Counted from the stretch's first letter, positions 14,938 through 62,936 are shown. The stretch: DNA of 64,000 nucleotides from a virus (IMGVR_UViG_3300029822_000865), one strand, 5' to 3'. Notes: generated by a model not told the origin, from the sequence alone. Translations and numbers: made by a program.

Positions 14938-14957
14938 CAGAATATAGAGGTAACCTT

Positions 14958-16914: not shown

Positions 16915-16963
16915 AAAAAATCACATTGTACTATGTAAGGAATAGAGTACAAGGTGATTTTTT
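16915..16963. terminator. bidirectional terminator-like hairpin
   Basis: AAAAAATCAC-A-TTGTACT ... AGTACAA-G-GTGATTTTTT. Confidence 0.6.
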
Positions 16964-18108: not shown

Positions 18109-18151
18109 TTTTCACACTTAGGTGGTAATATGTTAAAGGGGTGGTGAAAAG

Positions 18152-18976: not shown

Positions 18977-19008
18977 ACTATCGACTTTAAATTAAATAAT
19001 ATAAAGTG

Positions 19009-19035
19009 AAAAGCTGACGGGAGTATCAGCTTTTT
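19009..19035. terminator. Rho-independent terminator
   Basis: AAAAGCTGA...TCAGCTTTTT. Confidence 0.75.
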
Positions 19036-19050
19036 CTTTTAAGTTGATAA

Positions 19051-46421: not shown

Positions 46422-46493
46422 CAGAGGATAAACGTTTAACAAAAATGTTAATAGACATGAGTTTAAATTTTTAAACGAGAAAGGAAGATTGTT

Positions 46494-47644: not shown

Positions 47645-48178
47645 ATGTTAAACAGGTTAAAAATCCTGTTCGACGAAGTAACGCAAATTGCGGATAAGTG
47701 CTTCATAGTAAGATATGGTAATTACTATGGGGTATTTGATATCACAGGTGCTGAGATTTTACCTATAGGCTATAAACAAATAGAATATGATCATTCAGAT
47801 GACTTATTTATCATCAAAGAGTATGCAGAACAGTATAAGGACAAATGCTACCTTTGGAATATTACTGAGGGAAAAGTTTCAGAAGACTATGTTGATATTG
47901 TTCCCACAGGGTGCAATTCTTATGTAGTTGAGAAACATATAACTGAACATGGAAAGTACTTTCAAGGTATAGTAGCACGTTTCAAGGTAATTACTAGACA
48001 TTGTGAATTATCGCCTTTTATGTATAACAGCATAGTACCTTATAGGCAACAAACAGGTAAAGTAGTATATGCTTGTGTCACAATAAAAAACGGGTATGTA
48101 CTATTAGACGATATAGGGGATCAAATAGGTGTGTTTTCATCACTTTCAGAGTTAAATGATTTCGCAGAAAATTATTAA
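47645..48178 (+). CDS. WG-repeat-like protein
   Basis: 'YYGVFDITGAEILPIGYKQI'. Confidence 0.65.
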   Translation: MLNRLKILFDEVTQIADKCFIVRYGNYYGVFDITGAEILPIGYKQIEYDHSDDLFIIKEYAEQYKDKCYLWNITEGKVSEDYVDIVPTGCNSYVVEKHITEHGKYFQGIVARFKVITRHCELSPFMYNSIVPYRQQTGKVVYACVTIKNGYVLLDDIGDQIGVFSSLSELNDFAENY

Positions 48179-48209
48179 ATTGATTAAACATTTTTAAGGA
48201 GGGATTAAC

Positions 48210-49157
48210 ATGGCAGTTATAATTGATAGACAGGCATATGATGGGAAATACTACTACAGGTTAAGTCAACAGGGTAAAAGCATATCAACACTGGATGAAC
48301 AAGCGTTGATAAAAGTAATACAAGAGGGTAATTTAGTTAAAAATGCAGTAGTTGAGAACGGGCAACTTAAAGGAAGTAATGGAAGTTTAGACAGGTTCGA
48401 TTACTTCCGCAAAACTAAAGGAACTACACCTTTTGTAATTCTTGCTGAATACGTTGATGAAAGTGACAACACTGTCGGCTTTAAGATGGTAAACAATCAA
48501 GGGGTAACAAAGAGCTTTAATAAAAATGTTGCCTTAAAAGCAGCTATAAGTTGCGGATTACAAAATGGAAAGGTAGTTACAAACACCGCTGGTTCAAATC
48601 AGAATACGGTAGAGGGTAAATATTTTATAAGTGCAATAAACGGCACATACGATAAAATAAAGGTGAGAACACAGAAACCTGTACAAGTAAAGCTGGACAA
48701 AGAATACAAAAAAGAGGATAAAGAGAGTAAATTCACAAAAGGGCAGCTTTATTGGATTAACAGGGGTAAGGCAGAGAATTTAAACTATACGTGCTATACC
48801 TACACAGCATTTTCAGCAGAGCAAATGGAGCAGATTTATTTAGGACTTAAATCTGGTATAAATGTACGGTACTATTTACACCCTGACTTTAAAGTTGAAT
48901 GTATGGAAATGATAAGGTTAGAGAGTGAAAATAAGTTTAATGTTAGACCTTACGCTAATCCAGCATACAACAAAGCTCAAATGTTACAAATAAAACTAGG
49001 GTATGAAGCAGGGGTAAACTACTCGGTCTATGCAAACGCTGACATTCCAGCAAAGACTATGGAGACATACAGAATAAGGTTAGAGAGTGAAATGTGGGAC
49101 AAAGAAATAGGGGAATCGGGCGGTTTAATGCGTAAAGTGAACATTATACAAATGTAG
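48210..49157 (+). CDS. protein with ~26-aa C-terminal tandem repeats
   Basis: 'FSAEQMEQIYLGLKSGINVRYY', 'YNKAQMLQIKLGYEAGVNYSVY' and similar units. Confidence 0.75.
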   Translation: MAVIIDRQAYDGKYYYRLSQQGKSISTLDEQALIKVIQEGNLVKNAVVENGQLKGSNGSLDRFDYFRKTKGTTPFVILAEYVDESDNTVGFKMVNNQGVTKSFNKNVALKAAISCGLQNGKVVTNTAGSNQNTVEGKYFISAINGTYDKIKVRTQKPVQVKLDKEYKKEDKESKFTKGQLYWINRGKAENLNYTCYTYTAFSAEQMEQIYLGLKSGINVRYYLHPDFKVECMEMIRLESENKFNVRPYANPAYNKAQMLQIKLGYEAGVNYSVYANADIPAKTMETYRIRLESEMWDKEIGESGGLMRKVNIIQM

Positions 49158-49184
49158 GAAAAAATCACTTCCTAATCAATACAT

Positions 49185-49219
49185 AGCGGCTTAATGTGTA
49201 GTACATAAGCCGCTTTTTT
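49185..49219 (+). terminator. Rho-independent terminator
   Basis: AGCGGCTT...AAGCCGCT-TTTTT. Confidence 0.8.
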
Positions 49220-49241
49220 AAAATTTAAAGTAGGTGAGGGT

Positions 49242-49760
49242 ATGGATGTTATATTGAAAGACGGAAAATTAGTAAGCATTGACTCAGAAGAATTTAAAAC
49301 ACTTATAAATCAACTATCGGTAATTTACAGTACATCTGTGCAAGTTGTTAGGGTTGTAGGAAAATTAATAATATTCAGAGTAAAAAACGGAGAAAAGCTT
49401 GTTTACAATACTGAAATAGGGGTAATGGGCATATACAATGCAGTGATGGCGTTTAGTGGTGGATTTGCACCTGTATTAAGCAAAGAAACAAGGTTATTCG
49501 GGTATATTAATACTGAGGGTGAACTTGTTATACCCTGTGAATACGGTAAAGCATATGCGTTTAGTTGCAATAGGGCGGTGGTACAGAACAAGGAAAAGAC
49601 AGTTACGGGAGTTATAAATGAACACGGCGAGACAGTAGTGCCTTTTATATATGGCAGCATCACACTGTTTAAAAATAATATTGCTGAGGCAACACCTTTA
49701 TTCGGAATGGGTAAAAAAGTTGTATTTGACATAAACTACAATATAATAGAGGGATGCTGA
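49242..49760 (+). CDS. WG-repeat protein
   Basis: 'FSGGFAPV...FGYINTEGELVIPCEY..AYAFS..RAVV...GVINEHGETVVPFIY'. Confidence 0.85.
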   Translation: MDVILKDGKLVSIDSEEFKTLINQLSVIYSTSVQVVRVVGKLIIFRVKNGEKLVYNTEIGVMGIYNAVMAFSGGFAPVLSKETRLFGYINTEGELVIPCEYGKAYAFSCNRAVVQNKEKTVTGVINEHGETVVPFIYGSITLFKNNIAEATPLFGMGKKVVFDINYNIIEGC

Positions 49761-50021
49761 TTATAACATAGTATTACTTCAAAAGATTGGTCGTATGATG
49801 TATAAACATAAATTCACGAACCTGTACAAAAGGTAGGTTTGCATACTGTGAGATACATGATGAATTCTCTGAATACGCTTTATTTCACAATAAAGACGGT
49901 AGAACAGGGGAAATTTTCTGTTTAGGTAGGGGAGAAGTTAGTCACATAAAGACATGGGATTTATATGCGCAAGATCAAACATGGGAAGATTATGTTATAG
50001 ATAATAAACGGGGGGGGTAAA

Positions 50022-50837
50022 GTGAATAGAGAGAAGTATGAAGCCATACCTGATAAATTATGGCAAAGTGTGGCTCGACTATCAGTACTTTTGGGTATGG
50101 AAATGCAGGTTGTAGGTTATAACGATTTCATAAGTGTGTTACAAGATAGGGATGGAAGATCAGCATACTATATAATGAATAACGATACAAACGAGATAAC
50201 GGGTAATTATTGGGGTGTACGTGGGGATATAGATAATTTAGAGTATTTGGCAGTGAATCAGATGGACTACAGGAATAATTTAATACATGGTTTAATGGAT
50301 AGGCAAGGTGACTTAGTTTTATCTGTGGAGTATAAACAGTTATTTTCATTAGATTCTGGGTGTAGATTTTGGGTATTTTCAAAAAGGAGTATAAACTACC
50401 TAGGCTGTTTTGATTTAAAAGAAAAAAAGATGATTTTTGAAGAGGAATACCGCACTATAAAATATGTAAATCCAGCTGTATTTGTTGTTAAGAAGTGTTA
50501 TTCAGAATTGATAGTACCGGATAACAACTGGGAGATAATAAACATAGAAAACAATAGTTGTGCGACAGTGGAAAGTGTAGTATTAACGGGTAGACTGAAT
50601 GATAACAATGTGGTTATTTACCGTAATACATGGTACGCAGTATATAACGTGAACACGCATTTACGTACAAAATATAAGTATATAGATTACGACACTGATT
50701 CCTCATTTCCGAATTATGCTTTATTTAAGTTTACGCCCGTAAAGGGAGATGTCTTACATTTAGGAAAGGATAAAATAGAAAAAGTTGCTGACTGGATTTA
50801 CCCTCAAAATTGGTGGGAAAACCTGAAACAAGAGTAG
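50022..50837 (+). CDS. WG-repeat-like protein
   Basis: 'HGLMDRQGDLVLSVEYKQL'; cap 'ARLSVLLG'. Confidence 0.7.
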   Translation: MNREKYEAIPDKLWQSVARLSVLLGMEMQVVGYNDFISVLQDRDGRSAYYIMNNDTNEITGNYWGVRGDIDNLEYLAVNQMDYRNNLIHGLMDRQGDLVLSVEYKQLFSLDSGCRFWVFSKRSINYLGCFDLKEKKMIFEEEYRTIKYVNPAVFVVKKCYSELIVPDNNWEIINIENNSCATVESVVLTGRLNDNNVVIYRNTWYAVYNVNTHLRTKYKYIDYDTDSSFPNYALFKFTPVKGDVLHLGKDKIEKVADWIYPQNWWENLKQE

Positions 50838-50846
50838 GGATATAAA

Positions 50847-51308
50847 ATGGTAGACGTTAAAACAAAAATAGCTGAATTAGAGATTATTGCAGGATCACCT
50901 GTTATCTGTGTGGAATCAACAGCTTTTTTAACTGTGTTAAAACTGAGGGACATTCCTAGTTATTATGTATATGATAAGGAAATGGAATTGGTGGGAGTTT
51001 TCTCACACTATAACACTACAAGCACAACGAGATATAGAGTGGTGGGTGTTGGACAAGGTATATTCGGAGTGATTAACCGGAGAGGAAATCTTGTAATACC
51101 TATGGAGTTTAAATGCCTTAAACCGCTAGATAAAAACGGACTGTATTGGCGATTTAGTCGAGACATGCGAGAAGATGCTGATGGTGATATGTGGGCTTGC
51201 AGGAACAAAGGAAAGGGGTATGACATAGTAAGGTGTAAAATTACTAATAACGAGATAGTTATACTTGAAGACCTCATGGGAGAAGATCTAAACAAGTTTA
51301 AAAGGTAG
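50847..51308 (+). CDS. WG-repeat-like protein
   Basis: 'FGVINRRGNLVIPMEFKCL'; cap 'AELEIIAG'. Confidence 0.7.
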   Translation: MVDVKTKIAELEIIAGSPVICVESTAFLTVLKLRDIPSYYVYDKEMELVGVFSHYNTTSTTRYRVVGVGQGIFGVINRRGNLVIPMEFKCLKPLDKNGLYWRFSRDMREDADGDMWACRNKGKGYDIVRCKITNNEIVILEDLMGEDLNKFKR

Positions 51309-51316
51309 GTTACATT

Positions 51317-52900
51317 TTGAGTTATTCAAATGAATTAAAAAAGATAAGTATAATATTAGGAAAACAGGTCACATTGAAGTATGTAACTGAGTATTTATTT
51401 GTCGTGCAAGCCGAAACAAAAGAATCTTATGTGTTTGCATTACCTGACTTTAACTTTTTGAATAAGTATACAGCGTTTGCTAAAACGGGGTATGGGCAAT
51501 ATTTTGGTTCTTTCACAGGAAAAGGCTGGTGGTTAATAGGTGAACGTGGAGATATTCTAACGAAGAAAGAGTACATAACTATATATCCTATGACCAATGG
51601 TTTTTATGGTGTTAAGGAAAATGTACTGAATCTGCAGAGAGTACCTGACACATATACGGGCTGTATCGACATGTTAGGAAATGAGGTAGTTTCACTTGTG
51701 TACTCTAATATACAGTTTTTAATTCGAGATTTATTCTTGTGTTCGACTACAGTCAAAGAGGTAGAAATAAAAATTATAGTTAGAGCAGGCAACAAGAAAG
51801 CAATACCTTATGAAATTGACAGTGTTATTTGTATATGTGAGCACACACTAGCAATAAAAAGGAAAAAAGGCTTGTGGGGATTTTATAGTGTTGAGGACAG
51901 GGAGCTATCTAGTTTTGAGTGGGACAGTGTTAACGTGATACCTGATTCAAAAGCAATAATTACTAGAAGAGGGGAAAGGTATGACCTTATAGCTTGTGAC
52001 GAAACTGGTGTGTACATTCTATATCGAGGCGCAAAATGCATGAAGAGTAATCTAACGAGGGCATTAACTTATATTGAATCTGATAAAAATAGCTTTATTA
52101 TGAGTTGTACAGGGGATATAGTATGTGAACTAAATGAAATATCTGTTAAAGATATTAAATCTAGTAATACATCTTGTTTGGTGGGTACAACTACTGACGG
52201 TAAGAGTATTGGTATTAAATCTGATGGAACATTGTTTGATTTTGATTCTTCCGATCTATTTCATATAAAAACACCAAAGGGTAGTTATTTTGCTACAGGA
52301 GAAAGTATAGATACATATGATAAGTTGTATGATGGAGATTTGAACTTAATAAAAAATGACGGTACACTTTGTACTGTAAGAAGTGGGGGGTATCTTAATT
52401 TTGAAAATGACGGTAAAGTGGGGTTATATGACTTGTGGAGAAAACAATTGGTTGTTCCTAAAATATACGACATGTATGCGCAAAAGAGCGCAAACCGAGG
52501 GATATTTTGTCTAGGATCACGTGTCAAAGAGAACAACCACGGGTATAAGACATACTATCAAGTTATTAGAAATGGGAAGACAGGAGTAATATGTGTTGAT
52601 GAAGAATTTGGTACTTACGAAGTATCTATAAAACCTGAATATGACGAATGCAATCTTCACAATTATATTGATTCGGATATTGTTTTTATGCTTAAACAAA
52701 AAGGTAAGGTATACTTAGCGGACGACAAAGGTGAGATATTGACAAAGGGATATGATTTTATACGTTCGGAGGGGAGGGGGGATTGCTTAATAGTTAGAAG
52801 TGATGGTGTGTATAAAGTAATTGACTTGAAAGGCAATGTCGTGTCTGATGTCGAGTATGAGAATATAGAAGATTTACATGAAAAGCATAGATTTGTATAA
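51317..52900 (+). CDS. long WG-repeat protein
   Basis: 'GCIDMLGNEVVSLVY', 'WGFYS', 'KVGLYDL..KQLVVPKIYD'; cap 'KKISIILG'. Confidence 0.75.
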   Translation: MSYSNELKKISIILGKQVTLKYVTEYLFVVQAETKESYVFALPDFNFLNKYTAFAKTGYGQYFGSFTGKGWWLIGERGDILTKKEYITIYPMTNGFYGVKENVLNLQRVPDTYTGCIDMLGNEVVSLVYSNIQFLIRDLFLCSTTVKEVEIKIIVRAGNKKAIPYEIDSVICICEHTLAIKRKKGLWGFYSVEDRELSSFEWDSVNVIPDSKAIITRRGERYDLIACDETGVYILYRGAKCMKSNLTRALTYIESDKNSFIMSCTGDIVCELNEISVKDIKSSNTSCLVGTTTDGKSIGIKSDGTLFDFDSSDLFHIKTPKGSYFATGESIDTYDKLYDGDLNLIKNDGTLCTVRSGGYLNFENDGKVGLYDLWRKQLVVPKIYDMYAQKSANRGIFCLGSRVKENNHGYKTYYQVIRNGKTGVICVDEEFGTYEVSIKPEYDECNLHNYIDSDIVFMLKQKGKVYLADDKGEILTKGYDFIRSEGRGDCLIVRSDGVYKVIDLKGNVVSDVEYENIEDLHEKHRFV

Positions 52901-52913
52901 GGAGTTTTTAACA

Positions 52914-54644
52914 ATGAACAAAAATAATAACTTGCTTCATGGCAAGAAAACAGTAGAGGTCAAAGCGGAGAATATTGTGGGGACACATGAGGAAGTATTA
53001 AATAAGCTTTCTCTTATACTGGGTAAGTCTGTAAAAGTACATTTAGTAACAGAGGATTACTTCGTGGTAAGCGGTGGACATTCTGAAGTGTATGTTTACT
53101 TATTACCTGATTTCATATATGTAGGCAAATATGAAGTGTTCAGAAAAACTCAAAAAAGGAGGTATTATACAGTAAAAGACCGTGTTGGTTATTCTTTAAT
53201 TGACAGTAGTGCTAATTGGATTACAGAGAAAAGGTATTACTCGATAGATCATATTGGTGAAAATTACTTCAAGGTTGTTGAGAGGAGTATTGTCAACGGT
53301 AGATACTTACATAAAGTAGGTTGTGTTGACCTAAAAGGAATTGAAGTAATCAGTGCTAACTATACTGGTATACGTCATCTAATAAAAGATTTATTTTTGT
53401 GTACTACAGACATTGATGCAGTGAGCATACAAAGTATACTTAGAGCTGGAAATATACGTGCTATACCTTTTCCAGTTGAAGACGTACGAACGATTAACGA
53501 TACATCTATTGCTATAAAATCAAGAAACAAATGGGGTTTTTATAATGCGAAAAATAAGGCATTAACAGGGTTTGATTACGATAGTATAGAATCGAATTTT
53601 GAAGTACAGCGTAAAACAATTATAGCGACAAAAGGGGAATTAAAGGATTTAGTGTTATTGGATGATACAGGGGTGTATATTTTGTGGGAAAATGCTGAAT
53701 TTATGGAGAATAATTTGTCTGGTCAATTGACATTTATTAAAGATGGTGAAAAAAGCATTATTGTTAGAGATGATGGAGAAGTCATCTATGAATTTAAAGG
53801 GACAAATAAGCCTTTGAGAGTTAAATGTGAAGACTATACCTCTAACATAATAGTGTCTAGTGTTTCAAGGCAGAGTTTTACAGGAATTAGATATGATGGC
53901 ACATCTGTCAAGTTAGAGGGCGCATATATAGATGTTTTTAAGTGCAAGAGCACAGTGTATTATGCGACAGGAGATAATGTGTATCACAGTTATAAACACT
54001 TATATGATGAAAACCTAAACTTAATATGGGATAAATATAGCTTTTGGTCGACACAGTTTGAGGAGCACCTGAATATTGAAAAAGATAATAAAGTAGGGTT
54101 ATTTGATTTAAACACTTACACTACACTTGTACCCATGGAATATGGGTTTATTAAAAGAAGCGGAGAATTAGAGGGTTTTAAATATTTCATGCAAACCTTT
54201 GATTCATGTGGGAAGAGAATAACTTATTGGAGCATGGTTAAAGACAATAAAAAAGGAGTAACGAGAGTAAAAGATAACGGGTATGAAATTGTGTTGGAGT
54301 GTAAATATGAAGATTGTGAGATGTCTATTGATTCTAACGATAGTATATTGTTTATATTAACACTAGATGGCAAGACATACTTATGTGACTACAATGGAAA
54401 CAAACTATCTGCGGGATTTGATCGTATTTATCTTTATCAAAAAGACTATTTTATAGTGGAGAGGAATAATTTAAAGGGTTTAATAAACAACAAAGGCATA
54501 CTAATCACCACTGTTAGCCATTCTGATATTATAGCTATATTGGAATTTAAAAAAGAAGTGGTAGTAAGAACGGTAAAAGGCAATAACACTGTATATCGGT
54601 TCTTATCTGGGGCTTATAAAGATCCAGACAAGTTTAAAAGTTAG
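52914..54644 (+). CDS. long WG-repeat protein (close paralog of 51317)
   Basis: Collinear with 51317 (LPDF, DLFLC, RAGN.AIP, WGFY, KVGL.DL). Start placed at the ATG after AAGGAG; the ORF track starts at 52878. Confidence 0.75.
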   Translation: MNKNNNLLHGKKTVEVKAENIVGTHEEVLNKLSLILGKSVKVHLVTEDYFVVSGGHSEVYVYLLPDFIYVGKYEVFRKTQKRRYYTVKDRVGYSLIDSSANWITEKRYYSIDHIGENYFKVVERSIVNGRYLHKVGCVDLKGIEVISANYTGIRHLIKDLFLCTTDIDAVSIQSILRAGNIRAIPFPVEDVRTINDTSIAIKSRNKWGFYNAKNKALTGFDYDSIESNFEVQRKTIIATKGELKDLVLLDDTGVYILWENAEFMENNLSGQLTFIKDGEKSIIVRDDGEVIYEFKGTNKPLRVKCEDYTSNIIVSSVSRQSFTGIRYDGTSVKLEGAYIDVFKCKSTVYYATGDNVYHSYKHLYDENLNLIWDKYSFWSTQFEEHLNIEKDNKVGLFDLNTYTTLVPMEYGFIKRSGELEGFKYFMQTFDSCGKRITYWSMVKDNKKGVTRVKDNGYEIVLECKYEDCEMSIDSNDSILFILTLDGKTYLCDYNGNKLSAGFDRIYLYQKDYFIVERNNLKGLINNKGILITTVSHSDIIAILEFKKEVVVRTVKGNNTVYRFLSGAYKDPDKFKS

Positions 54645-54735
54645 GATTTACTTAGTCACTTCAATAAACATAGGTGATATATAAGTCAAAAGCACATATA
54701 ATATTAAAAATTTTTTATTCAAGGAGCTGTGAAAA

Positions 54736-55095
54736 ATGGGTACATACGATAAATTAGCTTCATACTTAGTTGAATCTGTTGAACTTAAAGGGGATTCTTT
54801 AGCAGTAAAAGTGGATAGTAACACAACAATGTTTATGTTCCAAAATTTTAAAAAGGCACTTCTGCGACAATCTGGGAACAAGAGAGTGTATACGCAATTC
54901 AAGGGTAGATGGCAGTTAATAGGTAAAGCTGATCCCGAATCACTTGCCCAGTTAATTGGGACAGTGTACTCCAATCATATGGAGTTATTCTACCTAACAG
55001 AAGACATGCAAGCAAAAAAAATCGAGGAATACTTGGAAAAAGGTATTGAGTTAAATATGAATTCTAGTTTTGAGACTAAGGTGATGGACTTTTAA
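54736..55095 (+). CDS. hypothetical protein
   Basis: 119 aa, AAGGAG RBS. Confidence 0.7.
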   Translation: MGTYDKLASYLVESVELKGDSLAVKVDSNTTMFMFQNFKKALLRQSGNKRVYTQFKGRWQLIGKADPESLAQLIGTVYSNHMELFYLTEDMQAKKIEEYLEKGIELNMNSSFETKVMDF

Positions 55096-55106
55096 TTTTA
55101 AAAAAA

Positions 55107-55135
55107 TAGACTTTTTTAAGGTTTTACTCTATATT
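55107..55135 (+). promoter_or_regulatory. sigmaA-type promoter
   Basis: TAGACT-17 nt-TATATT. Confidence 0.5.
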
Positions 55136-55268
55136 TATATGTGCTACAAATTAGGCTTTAAGATTATAGAATTTCATAACAATTAATAAAATAAATACTA
55201 TTCGTATAAATGTGATAAAAGGTTCAGATTTTAGATTTTATTGAAGGAAAAAATCGTTTAAGGAGTGT

Positions 55269-56207
55269 GTGTGTATGAAAATTAATCCGTTTGACATGTG
55301 TGCGGGGGAGACAGCAACAGGAGAAATATGCTTAAAAGAGGTTTCAGTATTTAACACAAAATCAAACAAGCAATACATAAGAGGAAAAGGGGTATATGAT
55401 GGTGGTGAGTACCCTGTTATTTGTTGGGAAGAACCGTTAGTTGATGTGTTTACTTCTGGATCAAAAGTGTTTAATGTATTGTTGGTGAGTGATAAATACA
55501 AAGATGAAATGCAATACACTGTTAAAGAAGTATTTGAGGATTTAGGGACTGATGCTGTGGCTGAATTTTATAGAACAATAGACATATCGGCATTGGAAAA
55601 AAGTTTTAATGAGTTTATGCACGAGAATTTTTCGGACAAGTACTTGGAGCTTATTAAAGAAATAATACCAGAGGAAATAATGCGACTGTTTTATTTAACA
55701 CCGGCAGCAACATCGCACCACGATAACTTTTGTGGGGGATTGCCACATCATACGTTCAAAGTTATGCGTATATTGAGAACACTGATTGATATATACGGCT
55801 TACAGGAGAAAAAGGAGTTTATTTTGCTTTGTGGGTTATTGCACGACATTGGAAAGATAGCTGCGATAGACTATAGAGATATGGAGTACACACTAAAGGG
55901 CGGAAAAATTACTCATGAGGGTTTAGGAATACTGTATATGGCAACTAAAATGAGAGTGTTAAGAAAGTATTTAACATCGGCAGAGATTGATAATTTAATA
56001 GGAGTTGTAGAGAATCATAGAGGTTACGACTACGGAGCAAGACCTGCTACCTTAGAGGCATATCTTGTGCACTATGCAGACAATACAGAGGCACAGATAA
56101 CAAGTCTACTTGAATTCACTGAAAGTCAAAATAAAGTGTTAACAAAGGAGACTGCTGTATGGTTTAAAGACAAGTTAATTGTTATTGAACCTGTAACAAG
56201 AGAATAG
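55269..56207 (+). CDS. YhaM/CBF1-like OB-fold plus HD-domain nuclease
   Basis: 'PAATSHH...GGL.HHT', 'LLHDIGKI', 'THE', 'NHRG', 'VHYADN'. Confidence 0.85.
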   Translation: MCMKINPFDMCAGETATGEICLKEVSVFNTKSNKQYIRGKGVYDGGEYPVICWEEPLVDVFTSGSKVFNVLLVSDKYKDEMQYTVKEVFEDLGTDAVAEFYRTIDISALEKSFNEFMHENFSDKYLELIKEIIPEEIMRLFYLTPAATSHHDNFCGGLPHHTFKVMRILRTLIDIYGLQEKKEFILLCGLLHDIGKIAAIDYRDMEYTLKGGKITHEGLGILYMATKMRVLRKYLTSAEIDNLIGVVENHRGYDYGARPATLEAYLVHYADNTEAQITSLLEFTESQNKVLTKETAVWFKDKLIVIEPVTRE

Positions 56208-56380
56208 GTAGGTTGCTGACACTCACACTATTGAATTTACGGAGAAGATTGAGGTTATGCTACCTAAAGACATAGTAGATAAACTGAATTCACTACGTTT
56301 AATGGAAGTGTGGAACATAGAGCAGTAAGTAACTAAAATACTTTTAGATTATTTTGCATAGCGGTAAAAATATAACACTT

Positions 56381-56413
56381 AAAAAGACAAGACAATATAC
56401 TCTTGTCTTTTTT
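56381..56413. terminator. Rho-independent terminator
   Basis: AAAAAGACAAGA...TCTTGTCTTTTTT. Confidence 0.8.
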
Positions 56414-56476
56414 ATATGTTGTGGATTAAGACAAATTTTTAATAAAGAAAGAATACTGTTTAAAGGTGTGTAGTCT

Positions 56477-56983
56477 ATGGTAGATAATTACTTAACTAGA
56501 AAGTTATTAAATAATGTGTCTTATTGTATTTCAAATGATTATATAATTATAACAGCCCCACATACTGAGTTTATTAAGGTTAAGCGATTAAAGTTAATTG
56601 ACTTAGACTCTCTACTACAGAGTTATACTGATTTAGTTAAGCTGACAAGAAAGCGCAAAATAAAGCTTATCACTAGGTATACAGCTAAACAACTTATTAA
56701 GCTTTACTGGGAAACATACTTAGAAAACTTTAGAATTGCAGATGCCCTATTCGATAACATGGTAAATGTGTTTAGCCTTGTAGAGAAAAGGGGTATACAT
56801 TCAGGCTATTCAGATGATGAAGTTTTTAGATTAGGAATGAAGCTTACAAATAGATATCAAAGTTTACAGTTTGACGGTGTAATTAGTAAAGTTATTAATT
56901 TTTATGGTGATGTGAGGAATAATCTTTTTACATTAAATAACGATTACTCGCCTGTTTATACGAAGATAATCAGACTAAGTTAA
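56477..56983 (+). CDS. unknown family A, copy 1
   Basis: Aligns with 59776 and 62448 (YL...NVSY.I, YW..Y, EKRG...G..D). Confidence 0.75.
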   Translation: MVDNYLTRKLLNNVSYCISNDYIIITAPHTEFIKVKRLKLIDLDSLLQSYTDLVKLTRKRKIKLITRYTAKQLIKLYWETYLENFRIADALFDNMVNVFSLVEKRGIHSGYSDDEVFRLGMKLTNRYQSLQFDGVISKVINFYGDVRNNLFTLNNDYSPVYTKIIRLS

Positions 56984-56994
56984 GGGGAAGAAAG

Positions 56995-57594
56995 ATGACA
57001 GAAGCAGAGGTAATAAAAGACATAAGAGTTAGGCTTGAGTTATTGACAGGTAATAAATTGAAATACATTAGATCTGATGATGGTATGTATAGAATTTTTC
57101 ATACTGAAACGGGACAGGCAGTAACAACAGATAGAGCGGGAAATGTTATTAATTTTTATAATGGCGGTGTGAAAATTAAACCTTATGGAATCAACAGGTA
57201 TATTGTTTATATTGAAAAAGGAAAGTATCTTAATATACTAAATATAGGCATGGAATACACAGATAGGAATATTGTGACATATTCCATGTTAGATAACTCT
57301 TGTTTATACTTACAAGATGATTTGGGATGTTTTCTTAAAAAATGCACGGGGGATTGTGCTACTTCGGAAGTATTCGAGGAAGTGACAACTGTTTGTGAAG
57401 CGGACATAGTAAAGTTTTTTATAGTAAGAATAAAGGACAAAATGCTATACCGGGTATTAGACTTGGACTTTAAATTTAGAACTAGAGAATTTACTAAAAT
57501 AGAGGAGACAACAAGAGGGGATGTAGTTAAATGTTTTGAAGTTATTGATGGCATAACACACTGTAGACATATAAACTGGCAAGATAAGAAATAG
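56995..57594 (+). CDS. unknown beta-rich family B, copy 1
   Basis: 'RLELLTG.KL', 'TD..G', 'ILNIGMEY'. Confidence 0.75.
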   Translation: MTEAEVIKDIRVRLELLTGNKLKYIRSDDGMYRIFHTETGQAVTTDRAGNVINFYNGGVKIKPYGINRYIVYIEKGKYLNILNIGMEYTDRNIVTYSMLDNSCLYLQDDLGCFLKKCTGDCATSEVFEEVTTVCEADIVKFFIVRIKDKMLYRVLDLDFKFRTREFTKIEETTRGDVVKCFEVIDGITHCRHINWQDKK

Positions 57595-57615
57595 GGGGGG
57601 GGTGAACATATAATT

Positions 57616-58302
57616 ATGCGATTACAAAACAGTATAAAGGATAGACTTGAAATAGTAGCAGGAGTGAAACTAGAAAGTGTAAGAGTTGACACAAGGGACT
57701 ATTTAGTATTTTTTAGTAAAGATAGTGAAAAGGCTTTCGTAACAAATTTAGATGGGGAAATTATAGTTGTACATAATAATGTTCAGTGTGAGACACTTAA
57801 ATATAGTCACAGAACAAGCTTAATTTACTTGATTATTAATTCGGACACATGTAAAGTATTAGATATTGGACTTGATTATATCGGTAAAGTATTACTTGGT
57901 TTTAAAACTATTAATGAAAAACATCTGATGTTAAGTGGTGAAACTGGTTGGTATCTAAAAAGACGGGATATAAGGCTTGAAACAGAAGAAGAGTATCAGA
58001 GTATCACATACTTTATTCATTCCAATAATAGTTTTAGATTTGCGGTCAAAATAAAGTTTAAAGAATCATATAGGTTATTGGACGAAGAATATACTTACCT
58101 TACAAGAGACTATAATACCATAGTACAAACAATATGGGGGTATACTTACAACTGTTCAAGGGTAGTTGACGGTAATGAAAAATGGTTTGAGGTAAATGGG
58201 TTTACTGGAGAAGAAATAAAGGAAATATCGAGGTGTTTAGATACGACACAGATTATCAAAGGTGTAGGTAGCCGAGGATGTATATATATTGGAGACTGTT
58301 AG
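57616..58302 (+). CDS. family B, copy 2
   Basis: 'RLEIVAG.KL', 'DTRDY', 'TNLDGEI', 'VLDIGLDY'. Confidence 0.75.
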   Translation: MRLQNSIKDRLEIVAGVKLESVRVDTRDYLVFFSKDSEKAFVTNLDGEIIVVHNNVQCETLKYSHRTSLIYLIINSDTCKVLDIGLDYIGKVLLGFKTINEKHLMLSGETGWYLKRRDIRLETEEEYQSITYFIHSNNSFRFAVKIKFKESYRLLDEEYTYLTRDYNTIVQTIWGYTYNCSRVVDGNEKWFEVNGFTGEEIKEISRCLDTTQIIKGVGSRGCIYIGDC

Positions 58303-58804
58303 AAAAAGATTAGAAATATTGTTGGGGGAAAAGCTAAAAGGAATAAAAGCGGATACAGGTGATTATTATGTATTTTACAGTGTGATATTAACTGGATCAC
58401 CTGGGGATTTAGAGGATGTAAAGATTGCGGTATTGACTGACTTATCTGGTGAAATTATTGAGTTATGCAAAGGCGTTTTACTTTGGGCGGATAAGCATGG
58501 CGTAATTTTTAAGTATTCTAATTTAGGGTTTTATCTGTTAAACATAGGCTTAGAGTACATAAATAAAAAATTCAAAAGCTTTGATTCTCCTATTCGAACA
58601 CATATAATACTTGAAGAAGATACAGAATGTTTCCGCATTATGAATCGGAGTAATGGGACAATTTCAAAACAGTATAAAAGCGTTAGGTGCTATGAACATA
58701 AAAAGGACATGGTCATGTTTGGAGTTATAAGTCAAGAAGATGGTTTATGCAGGTTGGTTGACGGGGATGGAAAAGTGGTAGCTTCTGTACAACGGTATCT
58801 ATAG
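58289..58804 (+). CDS. family B, copy 3
   Basis: 'RLEILLG.KL', 'DTGDY', 'TDLSGEI', 'LLNIGLEY'. Confidence 0.75.
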   Translation: METVRKRLEILLGEKLKGIKADTGDYYVFYSVILTGSPGDLEDVKIAVLTDLSGEIIELCKGVLLWADKHGVIFKYSNLGFYLLNIGLEYINKKFKSFDSPIRTHIILEEDTECFRIMNRSNGTISKQYKSVRCYEHKKDMVMFGVISQEDGLCRLVDGDGKVVASVQRYL

Positions 58805-58884
58805 ATTTAGGGCTTTGATCGGTTACGTGGACTATAATTTATATAGATTATAATATATTTGATTAGTTAGGGGGAGTGGGTTAA

Positions 58885-59358
58885 TTGGACATATGGGAAA
58901 TTATACTTTTGGTTTTATCTGGGGTATTGCTTATAAGTTTGCCGGTAATTTGGTTAGGGGTTATTATGCTACCGTATAAACTATATAGGACAAGACTAGA
59001 GTTTGATGCGAATTGTAAAGAGGGTGAAGTAGAAGTAATAGGGTATGAGCTTTACAGTGTAGCTCCTTTAGTGAAACTATGTGGTGGAGAAGATGATATA
59101 CCTACCCGTATAGGTATGATGCGTGGCGTTAAACGTTCAACACATCCTGTAGGTACACGTATTAACGTTAAGTATTCAAAAATATCAGCTTTTAAACCGT
59201 ACTATAAAGTTGTATGTTCCGACAAGTATACCCCGTTGGAGAAGAATAAAGTAATAGGAACATGTTTAGTTATAACAGGGGTATTATTGGCAGTTGTAAA
59301 CTGGTTAACACCTTTATATTTACTTGGGTGGATTATAGGCATGTTAAGGAAAAGCTGA
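58885..59358 (+). CDS. two-TM membrane protein
   Basis: Hydrophobic N- and C-terminal segments. Confidence 0.65.
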   Translation: MDIWEIILLVLSGVLLISLPVIWLGVIMLPYKLYRTRLEFDANCKEGEVEVIGYELYSVAPLVKLCGGEDDIPTRIGMMRGVKRSTHPVGTRINVKYSKISAFKPYYKVVCSDKYTPLEKNKVIGTCLVITGVLLAVVNWLTPLYLLGWIIGMLRKS

Positions 59359-59559
59359 CAAGATATTGAGTTTTCTTTTAATATATCGAAACATATTAAC
59401 TTCCTACAATACTATTTTCAAAAGACGCATAGGCTATATTTTTTGATTCGAACGACAAAATTTGTGCGTACGTTTTCATTCTAGGTACTTAATAAATTTA
59501 AGCCCGCACTTTTAAATTTATGGATAGTTTTTTAAGTGGTTCGGGTACAAGATTAGTTG

Positions 59560-59591
59560 AAGATAAGACTTAATTAAGCCTTATCTTTTTA
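59560..59591 (+). terminator. Rho-independent terminator
   Basis: AAGATAAG.CTT/AAG.CTTATCTT plus T tract. Confidence 0.65.
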
Positions 59592-59775
59592 TTTTGACTT
59601 TTATCTGGTGTATCACAAAAAGCTATATTTAATAAAGCATTTATAAAATAAAATGGTCTGTAGACCGTATAAGGTTGACGGTGGAGTTTGAAAGTCGGTT
59701 TAACAGTGAAAAAGGTGTTACAGAAAGGCTGCTAGAGCGGTTTTAAGAAATAATTAACGAGGGGAGTAAATAACT

Positions 59776-60246
59776 ATGAGTGACGAGTACTTAGAAAGGG
59801 GTTTATTACCTAATGTTTCTTATGAGATAACTAAAGATAAGGTTGAAGTATATAGCCCAAACACTGCGTTCGTAAAAATATATAGGGTTACACCTATCAG
59901 TATAAAAGAATTAACTGATAGCTATACTAAGCTTAAAAAACTAAGTGTACCTAAGTTTTTTAAGCGCTTACCCGAAGTTACTGACTTTATAGGTAGGCAT
60001 TGGTCGGCTTATTTAAAGGAAATAGAACTTGTCAACCTTGTATTTGAAAACATAGTAGTTGTATACAGGGAAATAGAAAAAAGAGGGATCAGACAAGGGA
60101 GTTTGGATGACAAGGTGCTTTTACTTGGAGAGAGCTTAGTACATAAACATCGCAACCTAACGGGATATGGAACATCAATAGGTAGTGTAACAGCATATCG
60201 AGGTATGGTTTGCCTCGGACATGAGGAGAAAGGAATAAGGGTTTGA
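59776..60246 (+). CDS. family A, copy 2
   Basis: 'DEYLERGLLPNVSYEI', 'IEKRGIRQGSLDD', 'NLTGYG'. Confidence 0.75.
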   Translation: MSDEYLERGLLPNVSYEITKDKVEVYSPNTAFVKIYRVTPISIKELTDSYTKLKKLSVPKFFKRLPEVTDFIGRHWSAYLKEIELVNLVFENIVVVYREIEKRGIRQGSLDDKVLLLGESLVHKHRNLTGYGTSIGSVTAYRGMVCLGHEEKGIRV

Positions 60247-60248
60247 TC

Positions 60249-60480
60249 GTCAATAACCCACGAACCTAAAGGTTCGGGGCTTGCAAAAGCCATTATTGAT
60301 TAGACTAAGTCTTAACTGACTACGTTACGCAAGAATGTACAGTTACCTACAAATATTTATCCTAGTTTGTAGCTCTAAGGTAAGTGATTAAACAGTTTCA
60401 ATGGGTAGAAACAGTGTTGCTTACACTAAACCTTGCAGTAACATTGTCTAAGGATATTTACTCTGAAAGGAGAACGTAAC
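60249..60480 (+). ncRNA. IscB omegaRNA scaffold (HEARO-like)
   Basis: Typical scaffold pieces (GTCAATAACCC, GATTAGACTAAG, GACTACGTT, CCTAGTTTGTAGCTCT, ACATTGTC.AAGG) lie immediately upstream of iscB. Confidence 0.85.
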
Positions 60481-61713
60481 TTGAGAGTATACGTATTAAA
60501 TCAAAGAAAAGAACCATTAATGCCTACTACACCAAGTAAGGCAAGAAAATTATTAAAACAAGGTAAGGCAAAAGTAATTAAAAGAGAGCCGTTCACAATT
60601 CAATTATTGACTGCAACAGGTGAAACAAAACAGGATATAACTTTAGGTGTGGACGCAGGAAGTAAAGCAATAGGTTTATCCGTAACTACAGATAAAGATG
60701 AATTATTTTCAGCAGAAGTCGAATTAAGAAACGATATTGTGGATTTACTCTCAACACGCAGACAAAATAGACGGACAAGAAGAAATAGATTAAGATACAG
60801 GAAGCCTAGATTTTTAAATAGAGTAGGCAGTAAAAACAAAGGATGGTTAGCTCCCTCAATTGAAAATAAAATTAACACTCATTTAAAGGTTATAAGTAAA
60901 ATATACGAAATTTTACCTATATCAAAAACAATAGTTGAAGTAGCAAGTTTTGACATACAGAAGATTAAGAATCCTGATATTCAAGGAAAAGAATATCAAC
61001 AAGGCGAACAATTAGATTTTTGGAATGTAAGAGAATATGTTTTATTTAGAGATGGGCATAAATGCCAAGGTAGAAAAGGTTGTAAAAACAAAATACTTAA
61101 TGTACATCATATTGAATCACGTAAAATTGGGGGCGATAGTCCAAATAATTTAATAACATTATGTGAAAATTGTCATGAAGATTATCACGATGGCAGACTA
61201 AAATTAAACTTAAAACGTGGTCAATCATTCAGAGATGCTACATTTATGGGAATTATGAGATGGAGTTTTTATAATAGACTTAAAGAAATATATCCAAATG
61301 TACAAATGACTTATGGATATATAACCAAAAATACTAGGATAGTTAATGGATTACCAAAAGAACATAGAATTGACGCATTGTGCATAAGTGGGAATCTATC
61401 AGTAAAGCAGTCAGAATATTGGTATTATATTAAACAAATAAGAAAACACAACAGACAAATTCATAAGGCCAACATTTTAAAAGGTGGAAAGAAAAAGTTA
61501 AATCAAGCACCATATGAAGTAAAAGGATTTAGATTGTTTGATAAGGTTAAATATAAAGGACAGGAATGTTTTATATTCGGTAGGCGCAGTAGTGGATATT
61601 TTGATTTAAGAAAGTTGGATAAGGTGGTTGTACATCGGTCAGCGAGTTATAAAGACTTAGAATTAATACAAAAAAGCAATAGTTTATTAATAGAAAGGAG
61701 AAGTGCAGGTTAG
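60481..61713 (+). CDS. iscB: IscB RNA-guided endonuclease
   Basis: PLMP motif, RuvC-I 'LGVDAG', Arg-rich bridge helix, RuvC-II 'VEVASFD', HNH 'HHI...GGD.PNNLITLCENCH', RuvC-III 'HRIDA'. Confidence 0.95.
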   Translation: MRVYVLNQRKEPLMPTTPSKARKLLKQGKAKVIKREPFTIQLLTATGETKQDITLGVDAGSKAIGLSVTTDKDELFSAEVELRNDIVDLLSTRRQNRRTRRNRLRYRKPRFLNRVGSKNKGWLAPSIENKINTHLKVISKIYEILPISKTIVEVASFDIQKIKNPDIQGKEYQQGEQLDFWNVREYVLFRDGHKCQGRKGCKNKILNVHHIESRKIGGDSPNNLITLCENCHEDYHDGRLKLNLKRGQSFRDATFMGIMRWSFYNRLKEIYPNVQMTYGYITKNTRIVNGLPKEHRIDALCISGNLSVKQSEYWYYIKQIRKHNRQIHKANILKGGKKKLNQAPYEVKGFRLFDKVKYKGQECFIFGRRSSGYFDLRKLDKVVVHRSASYKDLELIQKSNSLLIERRSAG

Positions 61714-61773
61714 AGTATGTGTAAGGCATTCCTCCGCTAGGCTAAAGCCATAGCGGTTTCCTGCCAAGTTTTT

Positions 61774-62424
61774 ATGAATACAATAGACACTATAAAATCC
61801 AAACTAGAGGTTATTACAGGTGGAGAGCTAGTGTACATAGAGCCAGATACAAAGGACTACAGTATATTTTATGATACTAAACAAAGGTTTTTTATAACTG
61901 ACTTAAATGGAGAGATCCTTTCTTCAATAACTGGCGAAGTCAGGAGTGAAATAATGAGAGAAGAGCCGCATTACAGCCTACTTTTCACAGATGAATTTGA
62001 TGGTGTCCGACTACTTAACATAGGGCTTGATTACCTAAATAGGTCTGTTAAGGATTTTGAATCGCACGGAAGAAAACACATAGCACTACTAGAGGAAGAT
62101 GGTTGGCATTTGAAAAAGAGGGGTAGCGACAAGATTACCTTAGAGGGGTTTCAAGACATTACTAGGCTACTTCATAAAGATGACAAAGTTAGTTTTGGCT
62201 GCACATGTAAAAAGGAAAATTTAAAATGGGTTTATGATGAAAATCTAAATAGAGTATCAAAGGGGTATGCGGCAATGAAACTTTCAATAAAACACTTTAC
62301 TCTTTATTGTTTAGATGCCTTAAATAACACTTGGTATGAAGTTGACGCTATCACGGGGGAAGAACGAGGGAAAATAAGCGGTGAAATACAGGATGTATTT
62401 GTGAGACATGATATCCCTTATTAA
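61774..62424 (+). CDS. family B, copy 4
   Basis: 'KLEVITG.EL', 'DTKDY', 'TDLNGEI', 'LLNIGLDY'. Confidence 0.75.
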   Translation: MNTIDTIKSKLEVITGGELVYIEPDTKDYSIFYDTKQRFFITDLNGEILSSITGEVRSEIMREEPHYSLLFTDEFDGVRLLNIGLDYLNRSVKDFESHGRKHIALLEEDGWHLKKRGSDKITLEGFQDITRLLHKDDKVSFGCTCKKENLKWVYDENLNRVSKGYAAMKLSIKHFTLYCLDALNNTWYEVDAITGEERGKISGEIQDVFVRHDIPY

Positions 62425-62447: not shown

Positions 62448-62936
62448 GTGAGAGACATAAACTACTTAGAGCTTGACATAACGAAGAATACTGTATACGA
62501 AATTTCAGTGAACTGGGTAAACGTGGCAAGGTTAAACACTTTGTATGTAAAATCAACACGTTTAGAAGTTTACGATAAGGTGACAATAATTAAAAGCTAC
62601 GATAACTTTGTGCAGATAGCAAAGAAAAAGCACATTTCAATAGACAGAGTAACCCCTGTAAACGATTTTTTATCTTTATATTGGGAACAATATATTGAAG
62701 ATACCTGCACAGCAAACTTAATATTTGACAGTATTGTAATTGTATTTAAGGAGATTGAAAAGAGGGGTTTACGTAAAGGATATATAGGCGACACATATCT
62801 ACAACAAGGGTACAACTTAGTAAGTAAGTATACAAACTTAAAAGGATACGGTAACGCAATAGCAGCAGTAGAGGGGTATCTTGCAGACTTGAAAAGCAAA
62901 GTTAACAGGATTAGTAACGGTTACTACTGGGAGTAG
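62448..62936 (+). CDS. family A, copy 3
   Basis: 'YWEQY', 'IEKRGLRKGY', 'NLKGYG'. Confidence 0.75.
   Translation: MRDINYLELDITKNTVYEISVNWVNVARLNTLYVKSTRLEVYDKVTIIKSYDNFVQIAKKKHISIDRVTPVNDFLSLYWEQYIEDTCTANLIFDSIVIVFKEIEKRGLRKGYIGDTYLQQGYNLVSKYTNLKGYGNAIAAVEGYLADLKSKVNRISNGYYWE

What the first reader, a model, noticed from the sequence alone, without database searches (positions are those of the whole stretch)
47645..62424. Array of ~10 signal-peptide-less WG/beta-repeat proteins sharing an N-terminal 'L(E/S)xxxG' cap
The N-termini align by eye: RLKILFD (47645), QLSVIYS (49242), RLSVLLG (50022), ELEIIAG (50847), KISIILG (51317), KLSLILG (52914), RLELLTG (56995), RLEIVAG (57616), RLEILLG (58289), KLEVITG (61774). 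Each is followed by beta strands. Bodies range from about 150 to 580 aa and fall into subfamilies. None has a signal peptide or TM segment. Inference: a conserved cap on variable repeat bodies suits a docking or export tag on a diversified set of binders (effectors, anti-defence inhibitors or immunity proteins). Candidate partners are the adjacent MoxR/VWA pair or the VirB4/FtsK module.
Basis: partly seen in the sequence, partly recalled or inferred. Interest (0 to 1): 0.75.

Follow-up and report, generated by a model that had tools for sequence, protein, structure and literature searches.

The report
Helix-capped WG/propeller-like paralog array
A giant plasmid- or phage-like element from a fermentation metagenome carries a fast-changing tandem family of at least nine cytoplasmic beta-repeat proteins that share a real N-terminal helix-plus-first-blade module; their function is unknown, and nothing found here shows that the module is an export or docking tag.

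Summary
Partly confirmed. Nine of the ten listed proteins (not 47645-48178) share an N-terminal module of about 52 aa. There is one weak extra candidate at 22017-23435. In two AlphaFold2 models the module is an amphipathic helix ending in L-(S/E)-h-h-x-G (h = hydrophobic), followed by a four-stranded beta meander.

The proteins form three paralog groups:
- A: 49242, 50022, 50847
- B: 51317, 52914
- C: 56995, 57616, 58289, 61774

Cap profiles align in register: A-B P=2.6e-5, A-C P=3.9e-5, z=7-11 against column shuffles. Most of this signal comes from the helix and motif. B-C alone is not significant.

Groups A and B (and 47645) carry WG_beta_rep repeats. Group C is an orphan: nothing but itself among 1.84 billion representatives. 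Both models are all-beta and resemble propeller blades.

The host element is a distant relative of Bacillus thuringiensis pXO16, sharing VirB4-like, FtsK, helicase, PolA and HD genes. It is not clearly a phage.

Two sister contigs show the array is hypervariable. It has gene deletions, a chimeric gene and one allele with a diverged body. Pooled pN/pS is 0.50 against 0.13-0.17 for neighbours.

Best reading: a lineage-specific family of intracellular binders whose cap is the conserved first blade plus helix. A tag role is untested and unsupported. The same scan noted the C/Y cassette and the IscB insertion earlier on this same window.

The parts
49242..49760 (+). Group A member, 172 aa. Cap at aa 16-68 ('QLSVIYS'), then two WG repeats (aa 86-111 and 123-146).
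   Evidence: Pfam WG_beta_rep E 1.1e-20; BLASTP to 50847 E 3e-6; local WG HMM; cap alignment A2.
50022..50837 (+). Group A member, 271 aa. Cap at aa 11-63 ('RLSVLLG') and one WG repeat at aa 90-114. Absent from sister contig L002.
   Evidence: BLASTP to 50847 E 1.6e-7; local WG HMM E 2.8e-9; no blastn hit in L002.
50847..51308 (+). Group A member, 153 aa. It is a chimeric, truncated gene. Residues 1-108 match the 233-aa gene of L001 (99%). About 39 residues then match the middle of a different paralog, P0004 (90-95%). Two deletions relative to L001 produced it.
   Evidence: DNA-level joins: window 50800-51169 = L001 7702-8096, 51165-51281 = L001 10313-10429, 51282-51400 = L001 10815-10933.
51317..52900 (+). 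Group B member, 527 aa. Cap at aa 1-53 ('KISIILG'), WG repeats, all-beta body resembling a double propeller.
   Evidence: Pfam WG_beta_rep 3e-10. AF2 model m7554756caf5b: H4-14, E18-23, E27-32, E37-41, E46-51, then about 40 strands; pLDDT 66.8. Foldseek hits to tandem WD propellers, with low TM. pN/pS 0.48-0.63.
52914..54644 (+). Group B member, 576 aa (the ORF is open from 52878). Cap at aa 23-75 ('KLSLILG'). The allele in sister elements keeps the N-terminus but has a diverged body.
   Evidence: BLASTP to 51317 E 2e-79; Pfam WG_beta_rep 7.5e-7; identity to the L001 allele falls from 98% to 40-60% along the protein; pN/pS 0.56-0.59.
56995..57594 (+). Group C member, 199 aa. Cap 'RLELLTG'. No Pfam family.
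57616..58302 (+). Group C member, 228 aa. Cap 'RLEIVAG'. It is the best cross-group cap hit.
   Evidence: ranks 6th in the leave-out-C search, E 0.013.
58289..58804 (+). Group C member, 171 aa, TTG start overlapping the previous gene. Cap 'RLEILLG' with a 10-aa loop insertion. Only a 123-nt remnant survives in L001 and L002.
61774..62424 (+). Group C member, 216 aa. Cap 'KLEVITG'. Modelled as a helix plus beta-meander blades. Separated from its upstream partner gene by an IscB insertion.
   Evidence: AF2 model m9c3646a81eac: pLDDT 75.6, H3-15, E20-22, E30-33, E39-42, E48-52. Propeller-blade matches: VIA Z 7.3, rmsd 4.1 A over residues 84-211. The only homolog cluster is itself.
47645..48178 (+). 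177-aa protein with one WG repeat (aa 28-46).
22017..23435 (+). Candidate extra member outside the given range. 472 aa, with an N-terminal helix, 'TLSVLYG' and strands at aa 19-43. It lies between the gyrB-like and gyrA-like genes. The evidence is weak.
   Evidence: It is the top non-member hit of every cap HMM (E 0.006-0.05 in a 197-ORF database). No BLAST similarity elsewhere.
44463..47630 (+). Upstream neighbours: a DUF2201 metallopeptidase-like/VWA-like protein and a MoxR-like AAA ATPase.
   Evidence: Pfam and PHROG hits. The ATPase has homologs in 481 phage records.
56477..56983 (+). Family Y copy 1. Copies 2 and 3 are at 59776-60246 and 62448-62936. This second orphan paralog family is interleaved with group C.
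   Evidence: BLASTP E 1e-24 to 1e-28; no Pfam, NCBIfam or strong PHROG match.
60248..61771 (+). IscB (RRXRR + HNH) insertion between family Y copy 2 and the group C gene at 61774. The site is empty in both sister contigs.
   Evidence: Pfam; window 60247 joins directly to 61772 in L001.

Best explanation
What it is. This is a lineage-specific multigene family made by tandem duplication on a giant, single-orientation, pXO16-like mobile element of a low-GC Gram-positive host. All members are soluble cytoplasmic all-beta repeat proteins built from four-stranded meander blades. Groups A and B carry recognisable WG repeats; group C has diverged too far to show them.

What the cap is. The shared cap is the ancestral N-terminus: an amphipathic helix closed by a glycine (L-S/E-h-h-x-G) packed on the first, degenerate blade. 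It is the slowest-evolving part because it nucleates or closes the fold, not because it is a detachable tag.

How the bodies behave. The bodies diverge quickly through point change, recombination between paralogs and alleles, and deletion.

Inferred function (not shown). The proteins are variable-specificity binders that the element makes in the cytoplasm to engage host or defence factors. The array is an accessory, arms-race-type region.
For: Shown:
- Three paralog groups.
- Cap profiles align in register and beat shuffled controls.
- Two independent AF2 models start with the same helix plus four strands within ~52 aa and are otherwise all-beta. Foldseek, VIA and BFVD matches are to propeller blades.
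- WG repeats occur in A, B and 47645.
- The last hairpin of the cap weakly resembles a WG repeat start. The language-model features of the cap alone point to WG_beta_rep clusters, which is a lead only.
- No signal peptide or TM segment. The bacterial WG homologs P0012 and P0014 start with signal-peptide-like sequences and P0012-P0014 lack the cap.
- Hypervariability. The three related elements carry three different gene sets. 50847 is a two-deletion chimera and 58289 is reduced to a remnant in the relatives. The 52914 allele has a conserved N-terminus and a diverged body. Pooled pN/pS is 0.50 against 0.13-0.17 for neighbouring genes.
- The family is absent from pXO16 and from one other relative, so it is accessory.
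Against: - The link of group C to A and B rests mainly on the helix and motif. Without them P is only 0.008, and B-C alone is not significant.
- Both models come from very shallow alignments (4 and 6 sequences). pTM is 0.65 and 0.45, TM-scores to real propellers are only 0.15-0.39, and ring closure is not established.
- In the p10 model, the low-rmsd (3-4 A) alignments to propellers cover only about residues 65-211 and leave out the first ~65 residues. The cap could therefore be a separate subdomain rather than blade 1.
- pN/pS of 0.5 can mean relaxed constraint rather than an arms race, and it is driven by two genes.
- No target, expression data or phenotype is available, so the binder or anti-defence function is pure inference.
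Confidence: 0.5

Rival explanations
1. The cap is a docking or export module that delivers a diversified set of binders to one shared machine. That machine would be the pXO16-type VirB4/FtsK transfer apparatus (for transport into recipient cells) or the adjacent MoxR/VWA chaperone pair.
For: - The N-terminus is conserved on variable bodies.
- The element really encodes a pXO16-like VirB4/FtsK module, and the array starts right after the MoxR/VWA pair.
- The closest viral fold matches are giant-virus BTB/POZ-WD families, which combine an N-terminal adaptor with a propeller (fold level only).
Against: - The cap is predicted to be a folded part of the beta architecture.
- MoxR/VWA pairs are widespread in phages that lack this family.
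- pXO16 and an IMG/VR relative have the transfer ATPase but no cap, WG or group C genes.
- Known type IV secretion substrates usually carry C-terminal signals (general knowledge, not tested here).
Confidence: 0.12
2. The cap is an oligomerisation element. The short members (150-230 aa, about 4-5 blades) are incomplete propellers that close into a ring, or into hetero-oligomers, through the N-terminal helix and first blade. On this reading the array encodes interchangeable subunits.
For: - Group C and several group A proteins are too short for a closed 6-7 blade propeller.
- PDB matches include propellers assembled from 2- and 5-blade fragments (6r60, 6r5x, 2yms).
- The genes are adjacent and overlapping, which would suit co-translation.
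Against: - No multimer prediction could be run.
- The long members (527-576 aa) carry the same cap although they have enough blades to close on their own.
Confidence: 0.15
3. The cross-group resemblance is partly convergent or chance. Groups A and B are one WG family, and group C is an unrelated orphan beta family that happens to start with a similar amphipathic helix followed by glycine.
For: - B-C is not significant. A-C drops to P=0.008 without the eye-selected motif.
- Group C has no WG repeat and no homolog among 1.84 billion representatives.
Against: - The A-C cap alignment is in register over 51 columns, with P=3.9e-5 and z=7.4.
- Unanchored whole-protein profiles choose the same region.
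- The two models have the same secondary-structure layout.
- The groups share the element, the strand and the neighbourhood.
Confidence: 0.12

Closest known systems
WG_beta_rep (Pfam PF14903, 'WG containing repeat' / KWG Leptospira repeat) proteins
   Same: Groups A and B, and 47645, contain the ~35-aa WG repeat. Three of them score above the Pfam cut-off. The architecture is all-beta and repetitive.
   Different: - Among the nearest bacterial WG homologs (P0012-P0014), those inspected start with signal-peptide-like sequences, and none has the helix cap.
- The proteins here are cytoplasmic, helix-capped, tandemly arrayed on a mobile element and hypervariable.
- Group C has no detectable WG repeat.
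- A 2021 survey listed the Pfam family among those without a known structure (PMC8078820), and I found no experimental function for it.
Paralogue-rich 'terra incognita' of pXO16, the 350-kb conjugative plasmid of Bacillus thuringiensis sv. israelensis
   Same: - Same class of element: all CDS in one orientation and many tandem paralogs (PMC6199540).
- Shared, syntenic VirB4-like (33% identity, E 7e-84), FtsK and helicase genes, plus PolA (36.6%) and an HD protein (30%).
   Different: pXO16 has no cap, WG_beta_rep, group C or family Y genes. Its paralog arrays are different families. The relation is distant, at 30-37% identity.
Giant-virus BTB/POZ-WD40 and F-box/WD40 multigene families
   Same: Large paralog families of propeller-like proteins with a conserved N-terminal module and variable blades. 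They are the top BFVD fold matches.
   Different: The match is at fold level only (TM 0.25-0.39, about 10% identity). No ubiquitin system is involved. This is an analogy, not membership.

Membership tests
WG_beta_rep (PF14903) | At least one repeat matching the Pfam HMM, with the whole-protein score above the gathering cut-off of 25.6 bits | tested here: met
   Met for 49242 (73.8 bits), 51317 (40.4) and 52914 (29.5). Below the cut-off for 50847 (17.4) and 47645 (12.4); 50022 has no Pfam hit. All three are picked up by a local WG HMM built from family repeats.
WG_beta_rep (PF14903) | The same feature, applied to group C (56995, 57616, 58289, 61774) and to 22017-23435 | tested here: not met
   No Pfam hit at E<=1. 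No local WG HMM hit. Group C profile against the WG repeat profile gives P=0.027. Only language-model leads point to WG clusters.
Beta-propeller (WD40-like) fold | Four-stranded antiparallel blades arranged radially into a closed ring | tested here: inconclusive
   Blade-like meanders match propellers: Foldseek prob 1.0, VIA Z up to 7.3, rmsd 4.1 A over 118 residues. But TM is 0.15-0.39, the models are shallow (pTM 0.65 and 0.45), and ring closure was not seen.
Single cap-bearing family (this report's own grouping) | N-terminal ~52-aa module with significant profile similarity across groups, in register | tested here: met
   A-B P=2.6e-5, A-C P=3.9e-5, z=7.4-10.9 against shuffles. Unanchored profiles agree. 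B-C alone is not significant, and 47645 fails.
Secretion or translocation substrates (T4SS-type or Sec) | A recognisable signal (Sec or lipoprotein signal peptide) or demonstrated transport | tested here: not met
   No hydrophobic N-terminal segment or TM segment by Kyte-Doolittle scan. A T4SS-type signal or actual transport cannot be tested with these tools.
pXO16-like conjugative megaplasmids (the host element, as context) | Homologs of the pXO16 transfer-region ATPases in synteny, with a common orientation of CDS | tested here: met
   VirB4-like protein 33% identity over 87%, E 7e-84; all 21 plasmid hits are Bacillus. The gene order VirB4-like, FtsK, helicase is shared with pBTHD789-1. All window genes are on the + strand. 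I could not verify that this region is the published 'tip' locus.
Known anti-phage defence proteins (PADLOC) | Match to a PADLOC model | tested here: not met
   No hit at E<=0.1 for nine family members and 22017-23435.

The most novel reading that the evidence does not exclude
The helix-plus-first-blade cap would be a common adaptor that plugs a diversified, rapidly exchanged set of propeller-like receptors into one machine of the element. That machine could be the pXO16-type transfer apparatus or the MoxR/VWA pair. This would be a bacterial mobile-element counterpart of the BTB-WD and F-box-WD substrate-receptor arrays of giant viruses and eukaryotes. It could deliver or remodel host or defence targets during establishment in a new cell.
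Probability: 0.12. Interest if true: 0.8.

Novelty: new variant of a known kind. Interest (0 to 1): 0.45.

Why it matters
pXO16-like giant elements are mostly genes of unknown function. Reviews note that they are full of paralogs, but no paralog family has been explained. Here one such family can be described in detail:
- it has a defined fold class;
- its N-terminal module is conserved;
- it belongs in part to the uncharacterised WG-repeat superfamily;
- gene loss, chimeras and allele replacement can be seen directly between sister elements.

That gives a concrete set of proteins to test for host-factor or defence binding. It also gives WG repeats, which have no known function, a tractable cytoplasmic model. 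If the cap proved to be an adaptor, it would reveal a new way for mobile elements to organise variable binders.

Tried and rejected
- Close DNA relatives: no megablast match in the phage or plasmid collections.
- IMG/VR scans with 61774, 51317 and the MoxR ATPase found nothing. The group A alignment was too divergent to make search patterns.
- Homolog searches found only near-identical clusters, one 38% paralog (P0004) and three distant secreted WG proteins.
- The full HMMER scan with the group C profile found only group C itself, plus two repeat-driven weak hits: a WD40-STAND protein and a flagellin-barrel protein.
- PDB sequence searches were empty.
- PHROGs, NCBIfam and PADLOC gave nothing for the family.
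- A SUKH/SMI1-KNR4 immunity-protein resemblance, recalled from memory for 'L-E-x-x-L-G' followed by aromatic residues, was dropped. There is no Pfam hit at E<=1 and the models are all-beta.
- A pure jumbo-phage reading of the element was my first view. I revised it after the best PolA and VirB4-like matches turned out to be pXO16-type plasmids. No virion genes lie in the window, so phage or plasmid remains open.
- Promoter and terminator scans were no better than shuffled sequence.
- Genome-contig scans for the VirB4-like protein found nothing.
- The metagenome records behind L001 and L002 are not held for whole-record searches.
- No whole genome is held for the window.

Full report
**Setting.** The window is 32-37% GC with positive GC skew throughout, and every substantial gene is on the + strand. 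It encodes:
- a PolA with a LAGLIDADG intein;
- GyrB- and GyrA-like proteins, a DnaB-like helicase, a primase, RuvC and an NAD-ligase module;
- a ParB-HNH protein and a methylase;
- a DUF2201 (metallopeptidase-like/VWA-like) protein next to a MoxR-like AAA ATPase, an HD protein and an IscB.

I first read this as a jumbo-phage replication module. The MoxR-like ATPase has homologs in 481 phage records.

The best database matches point elsewhere. For PolA (36.6% identity, E 2e-85) and the VirB4-like protein at 2511-4553 (33% identity over 87%, E 7e-84; all 21 hits in Bacillus), the best matches are the 350-kb Bacillus thuringiensis plasmids of the pXO16 type. The gene order VirB4-like, FtsK, helicase is shared with pBTHD789-1. 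An HD protein is shared as well.

[quoted passage not shown] Its transfer system is only distantly related to T4SS (PMC6199540; PMC9673590). The window therefore belongs to a distant relative of that class. Whether it also makes virions is open. No whole genome is held.

**The observation.** All ten ORFs are real, most have a good RBS, and none has a hydrophobic N-terminus or TM-like segment.

All-against-all BLASTP gives three paralog groups:
- A: 49242, 50022, 50847, similar over the N-terminal ~100 aa.
- B: 51317 and 52914, full length, 33% identity.
- C: 56995, 57616, 58289, 61774, full length, 23-31% identity.
- 47645 matches none of them.

Pfam places WG_beta_rep above its cut-off on 49242, 51317 and 52914, and below it on 50847 and 47645. 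It finds nothing on 50022 or group C. A WG HMM built locally from the family's own repeats also finds one repeat each in 47645, 50022 and 50847, but none in group C.

**Is the shared N-terminus more than chance?** Nine N-termini align without forced gaps. The pattern is a helix (h-x-x-x-h-x-x-L-S/E-h-h-x-G, h = hydrophobic), two short strands, a loop, and a hairpin that often reads h-h-h-D/N-x-x-G-E-h-h.

- *Leave-one-group-out HMM searches* of all 197 window ORFs put the held-out members directly behind the training set for A and B. For C, two of the four rank that high. E values are marginal.
- *Sister contigs.* A metagenome scan with the 38% paralog P0004 recovered two sister contigs from fermentation metagenomes (L001 and L002, 155.7 and 156.2 kb). 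They carry extra group A paralogs (L001 8493-8942, 9171-9989 and P0004), each with the same cap.
- *Enlarged group A.* With six sequences in group A, cap-only hhalign gives A-B P=2.6e-5, A-C P=3.9e-5 and (A+B)-C P=1.4e-5, in register over 47-52 columns. Column-shuffled controls give z=7.4 and 10.9, and none of 60 shuffles reaches the observed score.
- *Control for my anchoring.* Because I had anchored the segments on the eye-picked motif, I removed the helix and motif. What remains is a weak, still in-register signal (A-C P=0.0076, A-B P=0.039), and B-C is not significant.
- *Unanchored whole-protein profiles* give the cap-to-cap region as the best A-C alignment (7-57 vs 4-55, P=0.005). A-B aligns from the cap onward over 185 columns (P=1.3e-4).

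The cap is therefore a real, homologous feature of A and B. It is probably, not certainly, shared with C. 47645 fails every test. One extra candidate appears outside the given range: 22017-23435. Its N-terminus (helix, 'TLSVLYG', strands) is the top non-member hit of every cap HMM, but only at E 0.006-0.05.

**What the cap is.** Two AlphaFold2 models were made from shallow family alignments.
- Group C, 61774: pLDDT 75.6, pTM 0.65. It begins H3-15, E20-22, E30-33, E39-42, E48-52.
- Group B, 51317: pLDDT 66.8, pTM 0.45. It begins H4-14, E18-23, E27-32, E37-41, E46-51.

The layout is the same in both. Both continue as all-beta meanders. Foldseek, VIA-align and BFVD return only propeller proteins: WD40, tandem WD domains, fragment-assembled propellers, and giant-virus WD and BTB-WD families. 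Local scores are good (VIA Z 7.3, rmsd 4.1 A over residues 84-211 of 61774) but global TM is low, 0.15-0.39.

The last hairpin of the cap weakly matches the start of a WG repeat (P=0.008). The language-model features of the cap alone point to WG_beta_rep clusters, which is a lead only.

The simplest reading is a helix plus a degenerate first blade. One caveat: in the 61774 model the low-rmsd propeller alignments leave out the first ~65 residues, and confidence dips just after the cap in both models. A separate small subdomain is therefore not excluded.

**How the family evolves.** The cap window is among the best conserved in each paralog pair. It holds 10 of the 17 invariant columns of group C. 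The array differs among the three sister elements, although flanking genes are 97-100% identical.
- L001 has four more group A genes or fragments between 50847 and 51317.
- L002 lacks 50022 and the 50847 ortholog.
- The window's 50847 is a chimera produced by two deletions: L001 7774-8096 joined to 10313-10429, joined to 10815 onward.
- 58289 and the adjacent membrane-protein gene survive only as remnants in L001 and L002: 123 nt of 58289 and the 3' end of the membrane-protein gene.
- The 52914 alleles are 90-98% identical over about the first 160 residues, but only 40-60% identical through most of the C-terminal half.
- Pooled pN/pS is 0.50 for cap genes against 0.13-0.17 for neighbours. This is driven by 51317 and 52914; the AAA and HD genes are at 0.00-0.03.

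Outside this lineage the family is essentially absent.
- Group C has no relative among 1.84 billion representatives.
- Groups A and B have only distant relatives, the secreted bacterial WG proteins, which lack the cap.
- WG proteins are nearly absent from cultured phages.
- pXO16 and a 140-kb IMG/VR relative have no cap, WG or group C genes; pXO16 also has no family Y genes.

**Mechanism.** Shown: homology of the N-terminal module, all-beta blade-like bodies, a cytoplasmic location inferred from the lack of signals, and hypervariability of the array.

Inferred: these are variable-specificity binding proteins that the element uses in the host cytoplasm, with host or defence factors as the likely targets. 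The cap is conserved because it starts or closes the fold.

Its own refutation clause is largely met. A third possibility is that the short members are incomplete propellers that assemble through the cap. Multimer prediction, which I could not run, would separate these readings.

**Comparison and novelty.** Groups A and B are members of the uncharacterised WG_beta_rep superfamily. Group C fails that test. The helix cap, the cytoplasmic location, the tandem hypervariable array and the pXO16-like carrier are new features. I found no literature on WG-repeat function. I class this as a new variant of a known kind, of moderate interest.

**Limits.** The full sister contigs could not be searched. 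Function is not demonstrated.

Noticed in passing
window 1-11192, 39929-44362, 55269-56207: The element is a distant relative of the 350-kb Bacillus thuringiensis conjugative plasmid pXO16 (pBTHD789-1). It shares a VirB4-like protein (33% identity), FtsK and helicase in synteny, PolA (36.6%) and an HD protein (30%).
   Followed up: partly
window 60248-61771: The IscB gene and its flanks are absent from both sister contigs. There, family Y copy 2 abuts the group C gene directly (window 60247 joins 61772). This is an empty site that confirms a recent insertion.
   Followed up: yes
window 56477-56983, 59776-60246, 62448-62936: A second orphan paralog family (Y, 156-168 aa, 29-37% identity) is interleaved with group C in the order Y-C-C-C, Y-C, Y. 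It has no Pfam or NCBIfam match, only weak PHROG hits, and no match in pXO16.
   Followed up: partly
window 58885-59358: A small two-TM protein gene follows 58289. It is mostly missing, together with most of 58289, in L001 and L002.
   Followed up: partly
window 48210-49157: A 315-aa protein inside the array has no family match. It contains an internal duplication of a ~40-aa motif (...QM.QI.LG...G.N...Y...).
   Followed up: no
L005 (NC_018516.1 1-50000), about 2400-19100: pXO16 itself carries runs of some twenty consecutive ~150-aa hypothetical genes. These are likely paralog arrays of other families, comparable in style to the array studied here.
   Followed up: no
L001 1316-3325 vs window 44463-46421: The DUF2201/VWA gene aligns to L001 only over its first 1172 nt in one piece, and shows pN/pS of 0.72 there. 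Its 3' part may also be variable between sister elements.
   Followed up: no
L006 (IMGVR_UViG_3300045988_187936): A 140-kb IMG/VR record, classed as a provirus with CheckV completeness 73%, encodes a VirB4-like protein 35% identical to the window's. It is another member of the pXO16-like class, this time filed as viral.
   Followed up: partly
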